From a virus: 64,000 bases of DNA. The number at the start of each line of letters is the position of its first letter. Position 1 is the first letter of the stretch. Shown here piece after piece: positions 39,946-56,732 of this stretch. The notes below the pieces were generated by a model that made no database searches, was not told the DNA's origin, and was given only the letters and a program-made list of their open reading frames with translations. The translations under genes and the position numbers were made by a program. The stretch lies in IMG/VR virus record IMGVR_UViG_3300017783_000001. One strand, 5' to 3'.

Positions 39946-40272
39946 TTATACTCCAAAACTTTCTCCACAACCACAACTACTTGTTGCGTTGGGATTTTTT
40001 AATTCTAAAAATGACCCAAATATCTCCTTACGATATTCTATAGTCATACCTGCTAACATTAATATGCTAGACTTATCAACTAATAATGTAAAGTTATCGT
40101 GTAAGATAACCTCATCATTGTTGTCTGCTTCATCTTCAAACTTCCAGTCGTACTTAAAACCAGCACAACCACCACCTTTAACTTCTAAACGAACATATTT
40201 TTTGCTATGTTCTTTTGCTAAAGATTGTAAATGTGTTATTGCGTTATCTGTTAAGTTTATTAAATTACTCAT
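39946..40272 (-). CDS. iscA: Fe-S cluster assembly A-type carrier (IscA/HesB)
   Basis: VRLEVKGGGCAGFKY...NPNATSSCGCGESF. Confidence 0.93.
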   Translation of the reverse strand: MSNLINLTDNAITHLQSLAKEHSKKYVRLEVKGGGCAGFKYDWKFEDEADNNDEVILHDNFTLLVDKSSILMLAGMTIEYRKEIFGSFLELKNPNATSSCGCGESFGV

Positions 40273-40279
40273 ATTATTA

Positions 40280-40305
40280 TTTAGGGGAGATTTAACTCCC
40301 CCAAA
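40280..40305 (-). terminator. Stem-loop after the riboswitch-controlled ORF
   Basis: TTTGGGGGAG-TTAAAT-CTCCCCTAAA; no clear U-tail, and the 3' arm overlaps a CTAAATA late-promoter variant. Confidence 0.5.
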
Positions 40306-40308
40306 CTA

Positions 40309-40503
40309 TTACCAATTATCGGTAGATTTTATTACTTTATGTCCAAGTACTTTGCCTTTGTTAACACCATTGTTGATAGTGTAACCAGAAGTACCTTTAC
40401 CATTTATATCCACTTCTATACGAGAAGACGCAAGAGCCTTTTCTTTTCGCTCTATGTCTTTCTTCTTTCTATAAGTGGAGAGTAAATAAGTATGTCTATT
40501 CAT
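40309..40503 (-). CDS. Small basic protein downstream of the glutamine riboswitch
   Basis: 64 aa with a strong SD AAGGAGG. Confidence 0.7.
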   Translation of the reverse strand: MNRHTYLLSTYRKKKDIERKEKALASSRIEVDINGKGTSGYTINNGVNKGKVLGHKVIKSTDNW

Positions 40504-40525
40504 AACACCCTCCTTGATTAAAGTT

Positions 40526-40580
40526 AGGTGCGTTCCTTCAGGCGATTGCCTTACTTCCGACCATTGTTGGTTGAACGAAT
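40526..40580 (-). ncRNA. Glutamine riboswitch (glnA motif, class I)
   Basis: CGTTCA-[ACCA ACAA TGGT]-CGGAAGTA-[AGGC AATC GCCT]-GAAGGAACG: P1 CGTTC/GAACG, P2, E-loop AGTA/GAA and P3, lying between a promoter and the SD. Confidence 0.82.
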
Positions 40581-40585
40581 ACTAA

Positions 40586-40593
40586 TATTTATA
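40586..40593 (-). promoter_or_regulatory. T4-type late promoter TATAAATA driving the riboswitch transcript
   Basis: Exact motif ~6 nt upstream of the aptamer. Confidence 0.75.
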
Positions 40594-40695
40594 CAAGAGA
40601 CTTACATAAAACTAAACAAAGAGATAACATAGAGATTCGCCCCTATAACTCCGATACAAAGAGTCGCCCTCTCCCTGGTAAGATTAGTCTATGAG

Positions 40696-40712
40696 TGTTC
40701 TCTAAATGTTCT
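40696..40712. promoter_or_regulatory. LexA-box-like motif GTTC-N7-GTTC
   Basis: TGTTCTCTAAATGTTCT in non-coding DNA. Confidence 0.5.
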
Positions 40713-40814
40713 CTATGTTTTTAAATGTGTCGCCACGCTGACTCTATAGCATTCTCTGGAGTTTTCACACACTTATGTATAAGATTGTCAAACGCTAGCG
40801 TAAAAAGAAAGTGC

Positions 40815-40843
40815 TTGACAAGTATCCGACAATGTAGTACAAT
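40815..40843 (+). promoter_or_regulatory. sigma70-type early promoter
   Basis: TTGACA-17-TACAAT. Confidence 0.75.
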
Positions 40844-40879
40844 AGACTTATAATAACCAATGAAAGGAAATACAACACT

Positions 40880-41071
40880 ATGGCGTATTATAATAATGAT
40901 GATGTAATGCAGAAGTTAGATGAAATCGCTAACGACATAATGAACCTATCTATAAGAGTGAATAAGATAGACGACTCTATCCCGAAAAAAAACTCCGAAA
41001 AAAATTCACAAAGTCAAAGCCTAGATAAATCACTAGGATCCACAGAAGACCCTTTGCTAGTTGAAATGTAA
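40880..41071 (+). CDS. Small early protein convergent on gp5
   Basis: 63 aa with SD AAAGGA and its own promoter. Confidence 0.6.
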   Translation: MAYYNNDDVMQKLDEIANDIMNLSIRVNKIDDSIPKKNSEKNSQSQSLDKSLGSTEDPLLVEM

Positions 41072-41258
41072 AGAACAACCACCATACAGACTTAATAAGT
41101 TCTTTGTATGAGCGTCCTCCTGAAGTCGGCCGTTTCTTATATAGGTTAAATATCATAAAATATATTTAGTATAGTCTATTGCATTTATAGATTAAGAGCC
41201 AAGACCTGGATATAATAGGCCCTTTTAGCTACAGGTTTTTGAGAAGTCGGTAGGCCTT

Positions 41259-45977: not shown

Positions 45978-46409
45978 ATGGCAACAGCAAGTTATAAAGG
46001 TAGATACAAACCTCAAAACAAAGACAAATATCTAGGTAATCCTGATAAAGTCGTCTATCGTTCTAATTGGGAGAGAAGATTTATGGTTTACTGCGACCGT
46101 AATGAAGGTATCACACATTGGGGTAGTGAAGAGATTGCTATTCGTTATCGTAATCCTGTGACCAAGAAATTACATAATTACTTTCCTGATTTCTTCATAG
46201 TTACCAACAAAGGTAAGTATATAATTGAAATCAAACCTAAGGCCTTCACAAAGAAACCTAAACCTAGAGCTCGTAAGACTAGAGCATATATCAATGAGAG
46301 TTTAGCATATATTAAAAATAGAGCTAAATGGGGTGCCGCTGTTCGTTATTGCGAAATGCAAGGTTGGGAGTTTAAAATATTTACAGAAGACGATTTAGGT
46401 AAATTTTAA
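45978..46409 (+). CDS. gp4: Head completion nuclease (T4 gp4)
   Basis: YKG.Y.P.N..KY.G.P..V.YRS.WE..FM..CD...WGSEE...YFPDF...EIKP...N.AKW.AA. Confidence 0.9.
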   Translation: MATASYKGRYKPQNKDKYLGNPDKVVYRSNWERRFMVYCDRNEGITHWGSEEIAIRYRNPVTKKLHNYFPDFFIVTNKGKYIIEIKPKAFTKKPKPRARKTRAYINESLAYIKNRAKWGAAVRYCEMQGWEFKIFTEDDLGKF

Positions 46410-47962
46410 GTTGTTGCTGTTAGTCTTTCCCATTTAGACGCTGGGTCTGGATTTCTATTACCACTACCTACAAATTGTGATTCTGCATTGTTTGTGGTTA
46501 TAATTTGTTTGTTGTCTTGTGTTATACCAACATTGTTAGATGAGTTTGCTGTATTTGTATCACCTGCTTCTTTTAGTGCTTTTGCATTACCTGTTTGGTC
46601 TGCCTTATCTGTGCCACTAAAGTATTTCTTTTTCTCTTCAGGTATTTCTGCTTTTTGTGCTTCACCTTCTATACTTTTAGGTTCTGTCATTGTTGCCTTA
46701 TCACTTGACAATGCAACTTTTTCCATACCTATATACTTACCAAACTTATCTACGAAACCATTATAGATTCTTTTAAATATGTCTGATATATAATCACCGA
46801 TACTACCAAATGCACTTTTAATACTATCCCATATTCTACTTCCTAGAGTACTTACATAATCAACCATATCAGATATACCTTGTGTAAAGTTATCCCACTT
46901 CTCCATTAATGAATCTTTTAGTCCACCTATATAACCTACAAACGCATTCCATTTCTCCATTAAGTATTCACCAAACTTTCTAAAGACATCTCCTAGATAG
47001 TTATATGCGTCTATGATAGCGTCTTTGATTGCGTGAAATTTAAATATTGCAATTGCAATTACAGCAATCAATGCTAATATACCAAGTGCCCATAACAACA
47101 TAGGTACAACTGAAATCATAAGACTTGCACCAAATAGTTTTAATGATTTGATTGGTGTCTTCATTGCTTTACCGAAGTTCATAAATGAAGTACCCATTCT
47201 TTTTGCCATATCGCCAAGTTCTACAAATGGTCCTGTAATACTATCTTTGATACCCATAAAGGTATCAGATATACCAGCAAACATACCTCGTGGGTCTATC
47301 ATATCACCACCTTGACCACCAAAGTTATCAGAAGTATCGCCACCAAGTGCTTCTCTTTTTGCGTCTAAATCTTCTCGTTCTTTTGTTAGTAGTACTGACT
47401 TCTCTTTGATAAGCGTTTCTTCTTTTTGTCTACTAGTTTCATCTAGTTTGTGTAAATTCTTTGTTTTCTTTAATAGTTCTTGTTCGTTTGATACTATTCT
47501 CTTTTCAGATTGTACAAGTTTTTCTTGTTCCATCTGCAATTGTTTTGTTGATAGTACAACTGCCTTTGCACCATCTTCGGTCATCTTTACTTGTACTGCT
47601 ACACCTTGTTTTCTTAATTCACTTGCTTCTTTTTCTGCAACAACAATCATCTGTTCTCTATTACGCAATGCGTCTTGTAGAGATTTCATATCTTCTGATA
47701 TGTCTGCCTTTTCCATACCTCTTGTCAAGTCTTCAACAGAATAGTTTAATTCACCCATTCTATTAACAAGTTTATTCATCACATCATTTACACTTCTAGG
47801 TGTATCTCTAAATGCGTCAATAGTTTCTGCAACAAGTTTGTTTAATTTAGGCTGAGTTGACTTAACTAGTCCATCAACTGATTGGATAGACTTCTTTGAT
47901 ATTACTTTGAATATGGAAAGTAGTTCGTCTTGTGTAGCGTTTGAAAGTGTAGTGGCAGCCAT
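46406..47962 (-). CDS. Probable tape-measure / hub protein (gp29-like)
   Basis: Helical coiled-coil, a hydrophobic segment and W/F 11-residue periodic repeats; located downstream of gp26/gp51. Confidence 0.6.
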   Translation of the reverse strand: MAATTLSNATQDELLSIFKVISKKSIQSVDGLVKSTQPKLNKLVAETIDAFRDTPRSVNDVMNKLVNRMGELNYSVEDLTRGMEKADISEDMKSLQDALRNREQMIVVAEKEASELRKQGVAVQVKMTEDGAKAVVLSTKQLQMEQEKLVQSEKRIVSNEQELLKKTKNLHKLDETSRQKEETLIKEKSVLLTKEREDLDAKREALGGDTSDNFGGQGGDMIDPRGMFAGISDTFMGIKDSITGPFVELGDMAKRMGTSFMNFGKAMKTPIKSLKLFGASLMISVVPMLLWALGILALIAVIAIAIFKFHAIKDAIIDAYNYLGDVFRKFGEYLMEKWNAFVGYIGGLKDSLMEKWDNFTQGISDMVDYVSTLGSRIWDSIKSAFGSIGDYISDIFKRIYNGFVDKFGKYIGMEKVALSSDKATMTEPKSIEGEAQKAEIPEEKKKYFSGTDKADQTGNAKALKEAGDTNTANSSNNVGITQDNKQIITTNNAESQFVGSGNRNPDPASKWERLTATT

Positions 47963-55711: not shown

Positions 55712-55920
55712 TATACAGGTAGTTCGCTTGTTTTAGGTAACAGATTTAACTTCTGACACTCTAAAGCAACCTTCTCTTTTAATGCTTTGTTAATTAATGG
55801 ACCGACCGTAGCTGTGTCAATCTCTCTTTCTTCGCAATAAAGAACGATAGCATCCATATAAGATGTTTTCTTCTCTTTTTTGAAGGCTTCTATTTCTAAA
55901 CTAAATTGTTTACTATTCAT
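55711..55920 (-). CDS. gp33: Late transcription co-activator (T4 gp33)
   Basis: FS.EIE......SYMDAI..YCE...ID......LI.K.LKEK...E...LN.L. Confidence 0.85.
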   Translation of the reverse strand: MNSKQFSLEIEAFKKEKKTSYMDAIVLYCEEREIDTATVGPLINKALKEKVALECQKLNLLPKTSELPV

Positions 55921-56224: not shown

Positions 56225-56243
56225 TTATCTCTCCTTTGAAAAC

Positions 56244-56536
56244 GAGAAGTTTCTGTTGCCAAGTACCTCTCAAACTCCGTTACCTATTAACTAGGCAGCA
56301 AGGGCAAAATTTGCTTCGCCATTTAAAATTGCGTTTGAGTTCGCCAACTATTAATCTCCAATGGGTCATCTGCGTCTGTCAATCCTAACACACCCCCCAT
56401 AAAAACACTAGCGATACTTACGCCACAGATATAACCAATACTTTAACATAGCAGTTCTCCTTCTACTAGTGTGTTTATGGTGGAGGTGTCGGGAGTTGCA
56501 CCCGAGTCCAGTCCGGTTCTTACACCACCATCAACA
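56244..56536 (-). ncRNA. ssrA: Circularly permuted two-piece tmRNA (alphaproteobacterial type)
   Basis: Acceptor piece ends ...TCGGG TGCAACT CCCGA CACCTCC A CCA (56478). After an ~80-nt intervening hairpin, the coding piece starts GGGGGTG (56397), giving a 7-bp acceptor stem with G3.U70. A pseudoknot precedes tag (A)GEANFALAA* at 56320-56291, followed by a 3' GGCAACAGAA hairpin. Outer ends are approximate. Confidence 0.9.
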
Positions 56537-56537
56537 A

Positions 56538-56732
56538 TTAATCCTTTTTAATCTTATCGCAAGTATTCTCGTCAGCATAAAGACCAGTCTCTTTGTCGTA
56601 TAACCAAACATATGAGTATGCAATGCTATTGCCTTTCTCTATACATTTCTTACCGAAAGAAACTCTTGGTTCCTTTATACTACAAGCACTTATTAAACTT
56701 GCAATAAAAATAATACTAATCAGTTTGTACAT
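56538..56732 (-). CDS. Small lipoprotein
   Basis: Lipobox-like ISAC after a hydrophobic stretch. Confidence 0.6.
   Translation of the reverse strand: MYKLISIIFIASLISACSIKEPRVSFGKKCIEKGNSIAYSYVWLYDKETGLYADENTCDKIKKD

What the first reader, a model, noticed from the sequence alone, without database searches (positions are those of the whole stretch)
40280..40593. Late promoter, glutamine riboswitch, 64-aa gene and hairpin form a nitrogen-sensing unit in a phage
Seen: TATAAATA, then a complete glnA-type aptamer, then SD AAGGAGG and a small basic ORF, then a hairpin. The segment CACCT just 3' of P1 could pair with AGGGTG in the SD region. Established: class I glutamine riboswitches act as translational ON switches, e.g. 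for the glutamine synthetase inactivating factor gifB in cyanobacteria. Inference: the phage tunes a late protein to host nitrogen status, e.g. a GS regulator or lysis-timing factor, in a non-cyanobacterial host.
Basis: partly seen in the sequence, partly recalled or inferred. Interest (0 to 1): 0.72.

Follow-up and report, generated by a model that had tools for sequence, protein, structure and literature searches.

The report
Phage glutamine riboswitch gating a microprotein
An uncultured marine phage related to viruses of the ocean bacterium SAR11 carries a genuine glutamine-sensing RNA switch, fired from a late promoter, that most likely lets a conserved 64-residue basic protein of unknown function be made only when the infected cell is nitrogen-rich; the switch type was already known in this phage group.

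Summary
It runs: TATAAATA box (40593-40586), complete glutamine-I aptamer (40579-40527; Rfam RF01739, 55.7 bits against a cut-off of 35), SD AAGGAGG, 64-aa ORF (40503-40309), conserved hairpin (40306-40279).

The proposed CACCU/GGGUG pairing is real. It starts at the conserved C just 3' of P1 and covaries across about 90 viral copies (C:G 37, U:A 21 at one pair). It matches the layout that Klähn et al. 2018 proposed for the tested glutamine-ON switch of Synechocystis gifB.

The same late-box, aptamer and small-ORF cassette occurs in at least 120 IMG/VR stretches, in front of several unrelated families of basic microproteins. The 64-aa family has 131 cluster representatives, no Pfam or PDB match, and no homologue in isolated phages.

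Glutamine riboswitches in pelagimyophage and Melnitz-type phages are already published (Buchholz 2022). That paper tied the switch to the tmRNA. I find that in Melnitz and Mosig it also precedes a small ORF.

Nothing supports the proposed role as a glutamine-synthetase regulator or lysis timer. The only functional lead is a natural fusion of this domain to phage AdoMet decarboxylase.

This scan has noted the same architecture in at least 16 other genomes. I class it as a new member of a known kind.

The parts
40586..40593 (-). T4-type late promoter box TATAAATA. The inferred transcript start is near 40580, 1 nt before the aptamer model begins.
   Evidence: 14 of 15 boxes in the window are on the coding strand, and most are intergenic just upstream of ORFs; an [A/C]TAAATA box lies within 40 nt upstream of P1 in 72 of 112 unique viral aptamers, 61 of them at 5-9 nt, against 2.4% of random 40-mers; the phage encodes a homologue of the gp33 late coactivator. 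The start-site position is inferred from what is known of T4 late promoters.
40527..40579 (-). Glutamine-I (glnA-type) riboswitch aptamer. P1 is 40577-40573 with 40535-40531. P2 is 40571-40560. The core CGGAAGUA is 40559-40552. P3 is 40551-40540.
   Evidence: RF01739, 55.7 bits against a gathering score of 35, full-length match. P2 and P3 covary across 92 distinct viral copies; P1 is invariant.
40506..40530 (-). Expression platform: an SD-sequestering hairpin. Its 5' strand CACCU (40530-40526) begins at the conserved C directly after P1. Its 3' strand GGGUG (40510-40506) overlaps the SD AAGGAGG (40515-40509).
   Evidence: the hairpin alone folds at -9.4 kcal/mol (z -2.6); mean anchored helix length is 4.53, against 3.42 (maximum 3.76) when the tail is paired with another locus's SD region; helix 4 is 96% paired, and all 5 pairs show changes on both sides.
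40309..40503 (-). 64-aa basic microprotein gene (stop codon included). It has an N-terminal basic helix and a small Gly-rich beta region with the motif G-x-G-T-S-G-Y ... G-H.
   Evidence: the family has 131 cluster representatives at E<=1e-3, with invariant R3, R28, G37, T38, G40, G46, H55; differences between relatives are concentrated at third codon positions. AlphaFold2 predicts helix 3-26 (pLDDT about 86); the rest has low confidence.
40279..40306 (-). 3' stem-loop closing the unit (core GGGGAG/CUCCCC, loop UUAAAU). Its 3' arm overlaps a CTAAATA late-type box (40284-40278) in front of the iscA-like gene, which starts at 40272.
   Evidence: conserved in L001, L002, L007 and L009, with a compensatory G:C to C:G change in L004. 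More distant family loci carry other hairpins after the ORF; not called as an intrinsic terminator because there is no U-tract.

Best explanation
This is a self-contained late transcription unit of an uncultured T4-like marine myovirus of the pelagimyophage/Melnitz group.

How it most likely works:
- The phage late machinery starts transcription about 6 nt after TATAAATA, so the mRNA begins almost exactly at the 5' end of a glutamine-I aptamer.
- Without glutamine, the five nucleotides right after P1 (CACCU) pair with GGGUG in and just after the Shine-Dalgarno sequence. An inner CUU/AAG pairing adds to this. Together they hide the ribosome binding site.
- When L-glutamine binds, the first of those nucleotides, the conserved C, is captured in the aptamer's long-range G-C pair. 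The sequestering helix opens and the 64-aa ORF is translated. This makes it an ON switch.
- A conserved 3' hairpin closes the unit.

The product is a very basic microprotein with an N-terminal helix and a small beta region. It belongs to a phage-only family with no known function. My working guess is that it adjusts a nitrogen-linked host or phage process late in infection, when the cell is N-replete.

Shown: aptamer identity, conservation and covariation of the platform, and recurrence of the cassette.
Inferred: the transcript start, the ON direction, and the role of the protein.
For: - Aptamer: RF01739, 55.7 bits, full model. Eight of nine relatives fetched by protein homology carry it in the same place.
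- Platform, anchored analysis: helix anchored at the C after P1; pair 4 is C:G 44, U:A 29, U:G 4; pair 3 is C:G 63, U:A 7, U:G 6, A:U 1. The cross-locus control is lower in all 300 trials.
- Platform, model-based count: 96.3% of cells paired in this helix; the whole-structure covariation score is 0.359 against 0.118 when shuffled, and at most 0.07 when slid.
- The same architecture occurs in cyanobacterial gifB/DUF4278 leaders (CGCCUC...GGAGGCG). In Synechocystis the switch was shown to be glutamine-induced, and this pairing was proposed as the mechanism (Klähn 2018).
- The MFE fold of the leader contains P2, P3 and the sequestering hairpin.
- Late promoter: strand bias, positions and cross-locus enrichment; gp33 homologue.
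- The ORF is coding and conserved.
- Cassette independence: L004 and L007 have the same unit with a different downstream gene. Other phages put other microprotein families behind the same leader, including the isolates Mosig and Melnitz.
Against: - No experiment exists on this RNA. Ligand binding and the direction of regulation are inferred by homology.
- The sequestering hairpin is nested with P1 rather than overlapping it. Mutual exclusion therefore rests on the tertiary G-C contact known from the crystal structure as cited in Klähn 2018, plus one possible G49-U75 pair.
- The alignment used was fitted to the model and leans towards the structure.
- The hairpin after the ORF lacks a U-tract, so termination there is unproven.
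- The protein's function is unknown.
Confidence: 0.75

Rival explanations
1. Same parts, opposite sign. Glutamine binding stabilises P1, which stacks on the SD-sequestering hairpin and strengthens it, so the microprotein is made only when glutamine is low (an OFF switch).
For: P1 and the sequestering hairpin are directly adjacent and could stack coaxially.
Against: The Synechocystis gifB leader has the same platform layout and is glutamine/ammonium-induced. Klähn et al. attribute this to capture of the C after P1. The helix always starts exactly at that C, in phages and in cyanobacteria.
Confidence: 0.12
2. One reading: the 64-aa protein is a phage analogue of the cyanobacterial glutamine-synthetase inactivating factors (IF7/IF17). 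It shuts down host GS when glutamine is high.
For: The only characterised target of this riboswitch class is gifB/IF17. Like IF7, the protein is small and basic with an N-terminal helix. DUF4278-like (IF17-like) peptides occupy the same slot in other viral cassettes. Low-GC marine alphaproteobacterial SAGs place the aptamer in front of glnA and amt.
Against: There is no sequence or profile similarity to DUF4278 or any Pfam or PDB family. No family member was found in 80 cellular loci that carry the aptamer. Buchholz et al. report that OM43, host of the related phage Melnitz, lacks glnA. No interaction test was possible because the host is unknown.
Confidence: 0.15
3. The microprotein works with S-adenosylmethionine decarboxylase (SpeH/SpeD type). 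It would link nitrogen status to polyamine supply, for example for DNA packaging late in infection.
For: Four independent 50%-identity cluster representatives (P0017, P0040, P0039, P0141) are in-frame fusions of AdoMet_dc (PF02675, E 1e-12 to 1e-16) with this domain at the C-terminus. P0017 is seen on 9 contigs from several samples. L017 carries both genes.
Against: The window's record has no AdoMet_dc, though it is only about 69% complete. The frequent speD-riboswitch adjacency reflects the variable slot downstream of the capsid gene, which holds several microprotein families, so it is not independent evidence. The fused genes have no riboswitch.
Confidence: 0.15
4. The aptamer is a decaying or passenger copy with no regulatory role, and the ORF is expressed constitutively from the late promoter.
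For: There are no expression data. The cassette looks mobile.
Against: All conserved aptamer positions are intact. Helices and platform are kept by compensatory changes across dozens of diverged copies. The leader is retained in all close relatives.
Confidence: 0.03

Closest known systems
Type-1 glutamine riboswitch of the Synechocystis sp. PCC 6803 gifB (IF17) leader (Klähn et al. 2018, PMC6212724; Rfam RF01739)
   Same: Same aptamer family. Same layout of the expression platform: the C after P1 and the nucleotides that follow pair with the ribosome binding site. The downstream gene is also a small protein.
   Different: Here the unit is driven by a phage late promoter rather than an NtcA-controlled host promoter. 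The product is unrelated to IF17/DUF4278. The host is probably a marine heterotroph, not a cyanobacterium. This copy is untested experimentally.
Glutamine riboswitches reported in Methylophilales phage Melnitz, Pelagibacter phage Mosig and pelagimyophage MAVGs (Buchholz et al. 2022, PMC9004378)
   Same: Same phage group (structural protein 27-33% identical), same riboswitch family, and a two-piece alpha-type tmRNA in the genome.
   Different: That paper assigns the switch to the tmRNA. Here the switch is 16 kb from the tmRNA and precedes a 64-aa ORF. On re-reading the records, the Melnitz copy precedes an unannotated 32-aa ORF and the Mosig copy precedes Mosig_00116, 51 aa. These are different microprotein families behind the same leader.
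glnA RNA and Downstream-peptide motifs upstream of short conserved ORFs in marine picocyanobacteria (Weinberg et al. 2010, PMC2864571), and glutamine riboswitches later noted in T4-like cyanophage genomes (PMC9602691, PMC9964418)
   Same: A glutamine-sensing leader in front of short, family-less ORFs. Tandem copies occur. The setting is marine.
   Different: The 64-aa family was not described there. This copy is a single type-1 aptamer in a non-cyanophage myovirus.

Membership tests
Glutamine-I riboswitch (glnA RNA, RF01739) | Covariance-model score at or above the curated gathering score, over the full model | tested here: met
   55.7 bits against 35, model positions 1-53 of 53, E 1.5e-9.
Glutamine-I riboswitch (glnA RNA, RF01739) | Three-helix junction with conserved CGGAAGUA and GAAGGAACG strands, and helices supported by covariation | tested here: met
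   both strands are invariant in the aligned copies. All P2 and P3 pairs show changes on both sides. P1 is invariant, so it is uninformative.
Glutamine-I riboswitch (glnA RNA, RF01739) | Conserved C immediately 3' of P1, available for the long-range G-C pair | tested here: met
   C at 40530. Its role is taken from Ren et al. 2015 as cited in Klähn 2018.
Glutamine-I riboswitch (glnA RNA, RF01739) | Selective binding of L-glutamine | not testable with these tools
   Needs in-line probing or ITC.
Translational ON platform of the gifB type | Nucleotides from the post-P1 C onward pair with the SD region | tested here: met
   the helix is anchored at the C, is 96% paired, shows compensatory changes, and has the same layout in cyanobacterial leaders.
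Translational ON platform of the gifB type | Expression rises with glutamine | not testable with these tools
   Needs a reporter assay or toeprinting.
T4-type late promoter | TATAAATA box on the coding strand, intergenic, a short distance before the transcript's functional start | tested here: met
T4-type late promoter | The phage encodes the late transcription machinery (gp33 and gp55) | tested here: inconclusive
   a gp33 homologue (45% identity, E 8e-15) lies at window 55714-55920 (-). I did not search for gp55.
Intrinsic terminator | GC-rich stem followed by a U-tract | tested here: not met
   the stem is present and conserved, but it is followed by UAAAUAAUAAU, which is not a U-run.
GS inactivating factors IF7/IF17 (DUF4278) | Sequence or profile similarity to DUF4278 or IF7 | tested here: not met
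   none of the 15 family members hits them, even at E<=10.

The most novel reading that the evidence does not exclude
Marine phages of heterotrophs and cyanobacteria share a portable 'late promoter + glutamine-ON leader' that they plug in front of interchangeable basic microproteins. The 64-aa family would be one of these: a nitrogen-gated partner or regulator of S-adenosylmethionine decarboxylase (polyamine supply for packaging) or of another nitrogen-linked enzyme. That would be a new class of phage-encoded metabolic microprotein regulators.
Probability: 0.15. Interest if true: 0.75.

Novelty: new member of a known kind. Interest (0 to 1): 0.45.

Why it matters
The unit shows a lytic phage reading the host's glutamine pool directly through RNA, and using it to gate a late microprotein. 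The same leader recurs in more than a hundred viral contigs, in front of at least six unrelated microprotein families. These phages therefore appear to carry a repertoire of nitrogen-dependent small effectors that nobody has characterised.

The comparison also corrects a published assignment. In Melnitz and Mosig the switch precedes a small ORF, not the tmRNA, and those two cultured systems could be used to test the idea.

The riboswitch class, its presence in this phage group and its proposed mechanism were already known. The advance is therefore incremental until the protein's function is found.

Tried and rejected
- Family searches for the 64-aa protein found nothing meaningful. These were Pfam, a PDB profile search (best E 1.4) and the ESM Atlas (only viral hypothetical clusters, scores below 0.85).
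- tblastn of two family members against 50,697 phage records gave no homologue in any isolate.
- AlphaFold2 with a 15-row alignment: only the N-terminal helix is confident. I ran no fold search because the model is too weak.
- Complex prediction of the L017 AdoMetDC with the L017 63-aa protein gave no verdict. It counts neither for nor against binding.
- The MAFFT alignment of leaders (A2) misaligned the SD region. I replaced it with a covariance-model alignment and an anchored script with a cross-locus control.
- I first took the speD-riboswitch adjacency as functional evidence. I dropped it after seeing that it reflects the variable slot downstream of the capsid gene, which holds many cassette types.
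- AdoMet_dc and psbA are not found in the window's own record. The record is only about 69% complete.
- A second TATAAATA box with an apparently long leader (9499-9492) turned out to have a nearby GTG start.

Full report
**What is there**

Read on the minus strand, the region contains, in order:
- TATAAATA at 40593-40586.
- A 53-nt match to the Rfam glutamine riboswitch RF01739 at 40579-40527. It scores 55.7 bits against a gathering score of 35, with E 1.5e-9 over the full model.
- A 23-nt linker.
- SD AAGGAGG at 40515-40509.
- An ATG at 40503 opening a 64-aa ORF that ends at 40309.
- A stem-loop at 40306-40279.
- The start of an IscA-like gene at 40272.

The riboswitch is the only copy in the 99-kb viral record that holds the window.

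**The phage**

- The window comes from an IMG/VR record estimated at about 69% complete. GC is about 34%.
- It encodes T4-type baseplate and hub proteins.
- The closest isolates, judged by a 483-aa baseplate protein, are:
  - Pelagibacter phage Mosig, 33% identity;
  - HTVC008M, 27%;
  - the OM43 phage Melnitz, 27%.
  Rhizobiophages and cyanophages are weaker.
- It carries a two-piece alpha-type tmRNA and a homologue of the T4 late coactivator gp33.
- No psbA was found.
- A non-cyanobacterial marine host is therefore likely, but the host is not identified.

**The late promoter**

- Fourteen of the window's 15 TATAAATA boxes lie on the coding strand. Twelve of those are intergenic, and eight lie 8-28 nt before an ORF start.
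- Here the box lies 82 nt before the ORF, and the riboswitch fills that gap.
- If T4 rules apply, transcription starts near 40580, 1 nt before the aptamer model begins. This is an inference.
- Across 112 unique viral aptamers that are not the second copy of a tandem pair:
  - 72 have an [A/C]TAAATA box within 40 nt upstream;
  - 61 of those lie 5-9 nt before P1.
  For comparison, 2.4% of random 40-mers from the same loci contain TAAATA.

**The expression platform**

- The five nucleotides after P1 (CACCU, 40530-40526) pair with GGGUG (40510-40506), which overlaps the SD.
- Alone, this hairpin folds at -9.4 kcal/mol with an extra inner CUU/AAG pairing. It also appears in the MFE fold of the whole leader.
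- To test conservation I collected viral copies with a core pattern.
- In 113 distinct tails, the longest helix anchored at the post-P1 C averages 4.53 bp. When the tail is paired with another locus's SD region it averages 3.42 bp (maximum 3.76 in 300 trials).
- Pair types change on both sides:
  - CACCU/GGGUG, 27 copies;
  - CACUU/GAGUG, 9 copies;
  - CACUUU/GAAGUG, 8 copies;
  - CAUCUUU/GGAGAUG, 3 copies;
  - CAAUCUUU/GGAGAUUG, 1 copy.
- A covariance model built from 15 copies realigned 98 matches. On that alignment:
  - the sequestering helix is 96.3% paired, with changes on both sides at all five pairs;
  - one pair, for example, reads C:G 37, U:A 21, U:G 4;
  - the whole structure beats all 500 shuffles and every slid version.
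  That alignment is fitted to the model, so I give more weight to the script with its cross-locus control.
- Cyanobacterial leaders of DUF4278/gifB-type genes show the same design with other letters (CGCCUC...GGAGGCG).
- Klähn et al. 2018 showed that the Synechocystis gifB switch is induced by glutamine. They proposed that capture of this C in a long-range G-C pair melts the anti-RBS helix.
- I therefore read the window's element as a translational ON switch.
- Because the hairpin is nested beside P1 rather than overlapping it, the direction rests on that homology and not on a clash in secondary structure.

**The ORF**

- It is coding. Differences from relatives concentrate at third codon positions; against L007 the counts are 5, 5 and 24.
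- Fifteen diverse members keep R3, R28, G37, T38, G40, G46 and H55.
- A profile search of 1.8 billion representatives finds 131 clusters at E<=1e-3, almost all 55-90 aa.
- The protein has pI 10.1.
- AlphaFold2 predicts a confident N-terminal helix (residues 3-26) and a poorly defined beta region.
- It has no Pfam, PDB or Atlas relative and no homologue in isolated phages.

**The cassette is general**

The ORFs downstream of viral aptamers fall into several families:
- this 64-aa family, 22 distinct sequences;
- a Trp/Cys-rich family of about 33 aa, 24 sequences;
- DUF4278-like YRG-repeat peptides, 24 sequences;
- a 26-32-aa Lys/Gln-rich family, 10 sequences;
- a 50-aa family ending in DDPRLQKI, 8 sequences;
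- several smaller families.

Further points:
- The counts are biased for the 64-aa family, because nine loci were fetched by homology to that protein.
- Members of the 64-aa family occur in contigs whose capsid protein is closest to jumbo T4-like phages. The family is therefore not limited to pelagimyophages.
- In L004 and L007 the same unit is followed by a different gene. This fits a portable module.

**Re-reading the published cases**

- Buchholz et al. 2022 reported glutamine riboswitches in Melnitz, Mosig and ten pelagimyophage MAVGs. They described the Melnitz copy as controlling the tmRNA.
- In the Melnitz record the aptamer (46398-46446) is followed by the same sequestering platform and an unannotated 32-aa ORF of the Trp/Cys family. 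A probably spurious opposite-strand CDS overlaps that ORF.
- In Mosig the aptamer (92250-92197) follows a CATAAATA box and precedes Mosig_00116, which is 51 aa and belongs to the DDPRLQKI family.
- The rule in this phage group is therefore 'late box, aptamer, small ORF'.

**Cellular background**

- The aptamer core also occurs in genome bins and single-cell genomes of SAR86, SAR116 and low-GC marine alphaproteobacteria.
- In the alphaproteobacteria, tandem copies precede ammonium transporter and glutamine synthetase genes.
- None of the 80 sampled cellular loci encodes the 64-aa family.

**What the protein might do**

- The one concrete lead is a gene fusion. Four cluster representatives join a complete AdoMet decarboxylase domain (PF02675) to this domain at the C-terminus. 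One of them is seen on nine contigs from several samples.
- AdoMetDC genes also lie just upstream of many viral riboswitch cassettes. That reflects the variable slot after the capsid gene, which hosts several cassette types, so I do not count it as evidence.
- The window's record has no AdoMetDC.
- A co-folding job on a same-contig pair gave no verdict.

**Verdict**

- The riboswitch class and its presence in this phage group are already known.
- The regulated microprotein family is uncharacterised.
- This scan has recorded the same architecture in at least 16 other genomes, including one with the same 64-residue family.

Noticed in passing
L140:1070-1168 (Methylophilales phage Melnitz MZ577097.1, about 46469-46567): The published 'tmRNA-controlling' glutamine riboswitch of Melnitz is followed by the same SD-sequestering platform and an unannotated 32-aa ORF beginning MTLYQQWCY. 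The record instead annotates an overlapping opposite-strand 33-aa CDS (MelnitzEXVC044M_89).
   Followed up: yes
L133:4001-4585, L137:1225-1839 (proteins P0017, P0040, P0039, P0141): These are natural in-frame fusions of S-adenosylmethionine decarboxylase (PF02675) with the 64-aa family domain, in Pam3-like phage contigs. No riboswitch lies upstream.
   Followed up: partly
window 56242-56585 (-) and 55714-55920 (-): A two-piece (permuted, alpha-type) tmRNA is followed by a homologue of the T4 late-transcription coactivator gp33. The order is the same as in Melnitz, but here there is no riboswitch between them.
   Followed up: partly
L150, L181, L159, L154, L209 (marine alphaproteobacterial single-cell genomes, GC 0.28-0.34): Tandem glutamine-I aptamers sit in front of ammonium transporter and glutamine synthetase genes. 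Their expression platform differs from the phage one: there is no SD-pairing tail of the CACCU type.
   Followed up: no
L023, L028, L046, L069, L083, L108, L115, L124, L128 (viral contigs): Tandem glutamine aptamers precede one small ORF. Twelve of 124 unique viral aptamers are the second copy of a tandem pair.
   Followed up: no
L101:209-2090 (-): The gene order is major capsid protein, AdoMet decarboxylase, glutamine riboswitch, 50-aa ORF. The slot downstream of the capsid gene seems to be a hot spot for these cassettes: 19 sampled loci have the capsid gene directly upstream.
   Followed up: partly
window 40278-40284 (-): A CTAAATA late-type box is embedded in the 3' arm of the hairpin, only about 6 nt before the iscA-like ATG at 40272. 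A transcript starting there would be nearly leaderless.
   Followed up: no
window 40594-41258: A gap of about 660 nt separates the gp5 hub gene from the riboswitch unit. It holds two terminator-like hairpins on the minus strand (41053-41020). On the plus strand it holds a strong sigma70-like promoter (TTGACA-17-TACAAT, 40815-40843) in front of a 63-aa ORF (40880-41071) with no family match.
   Followed up: no
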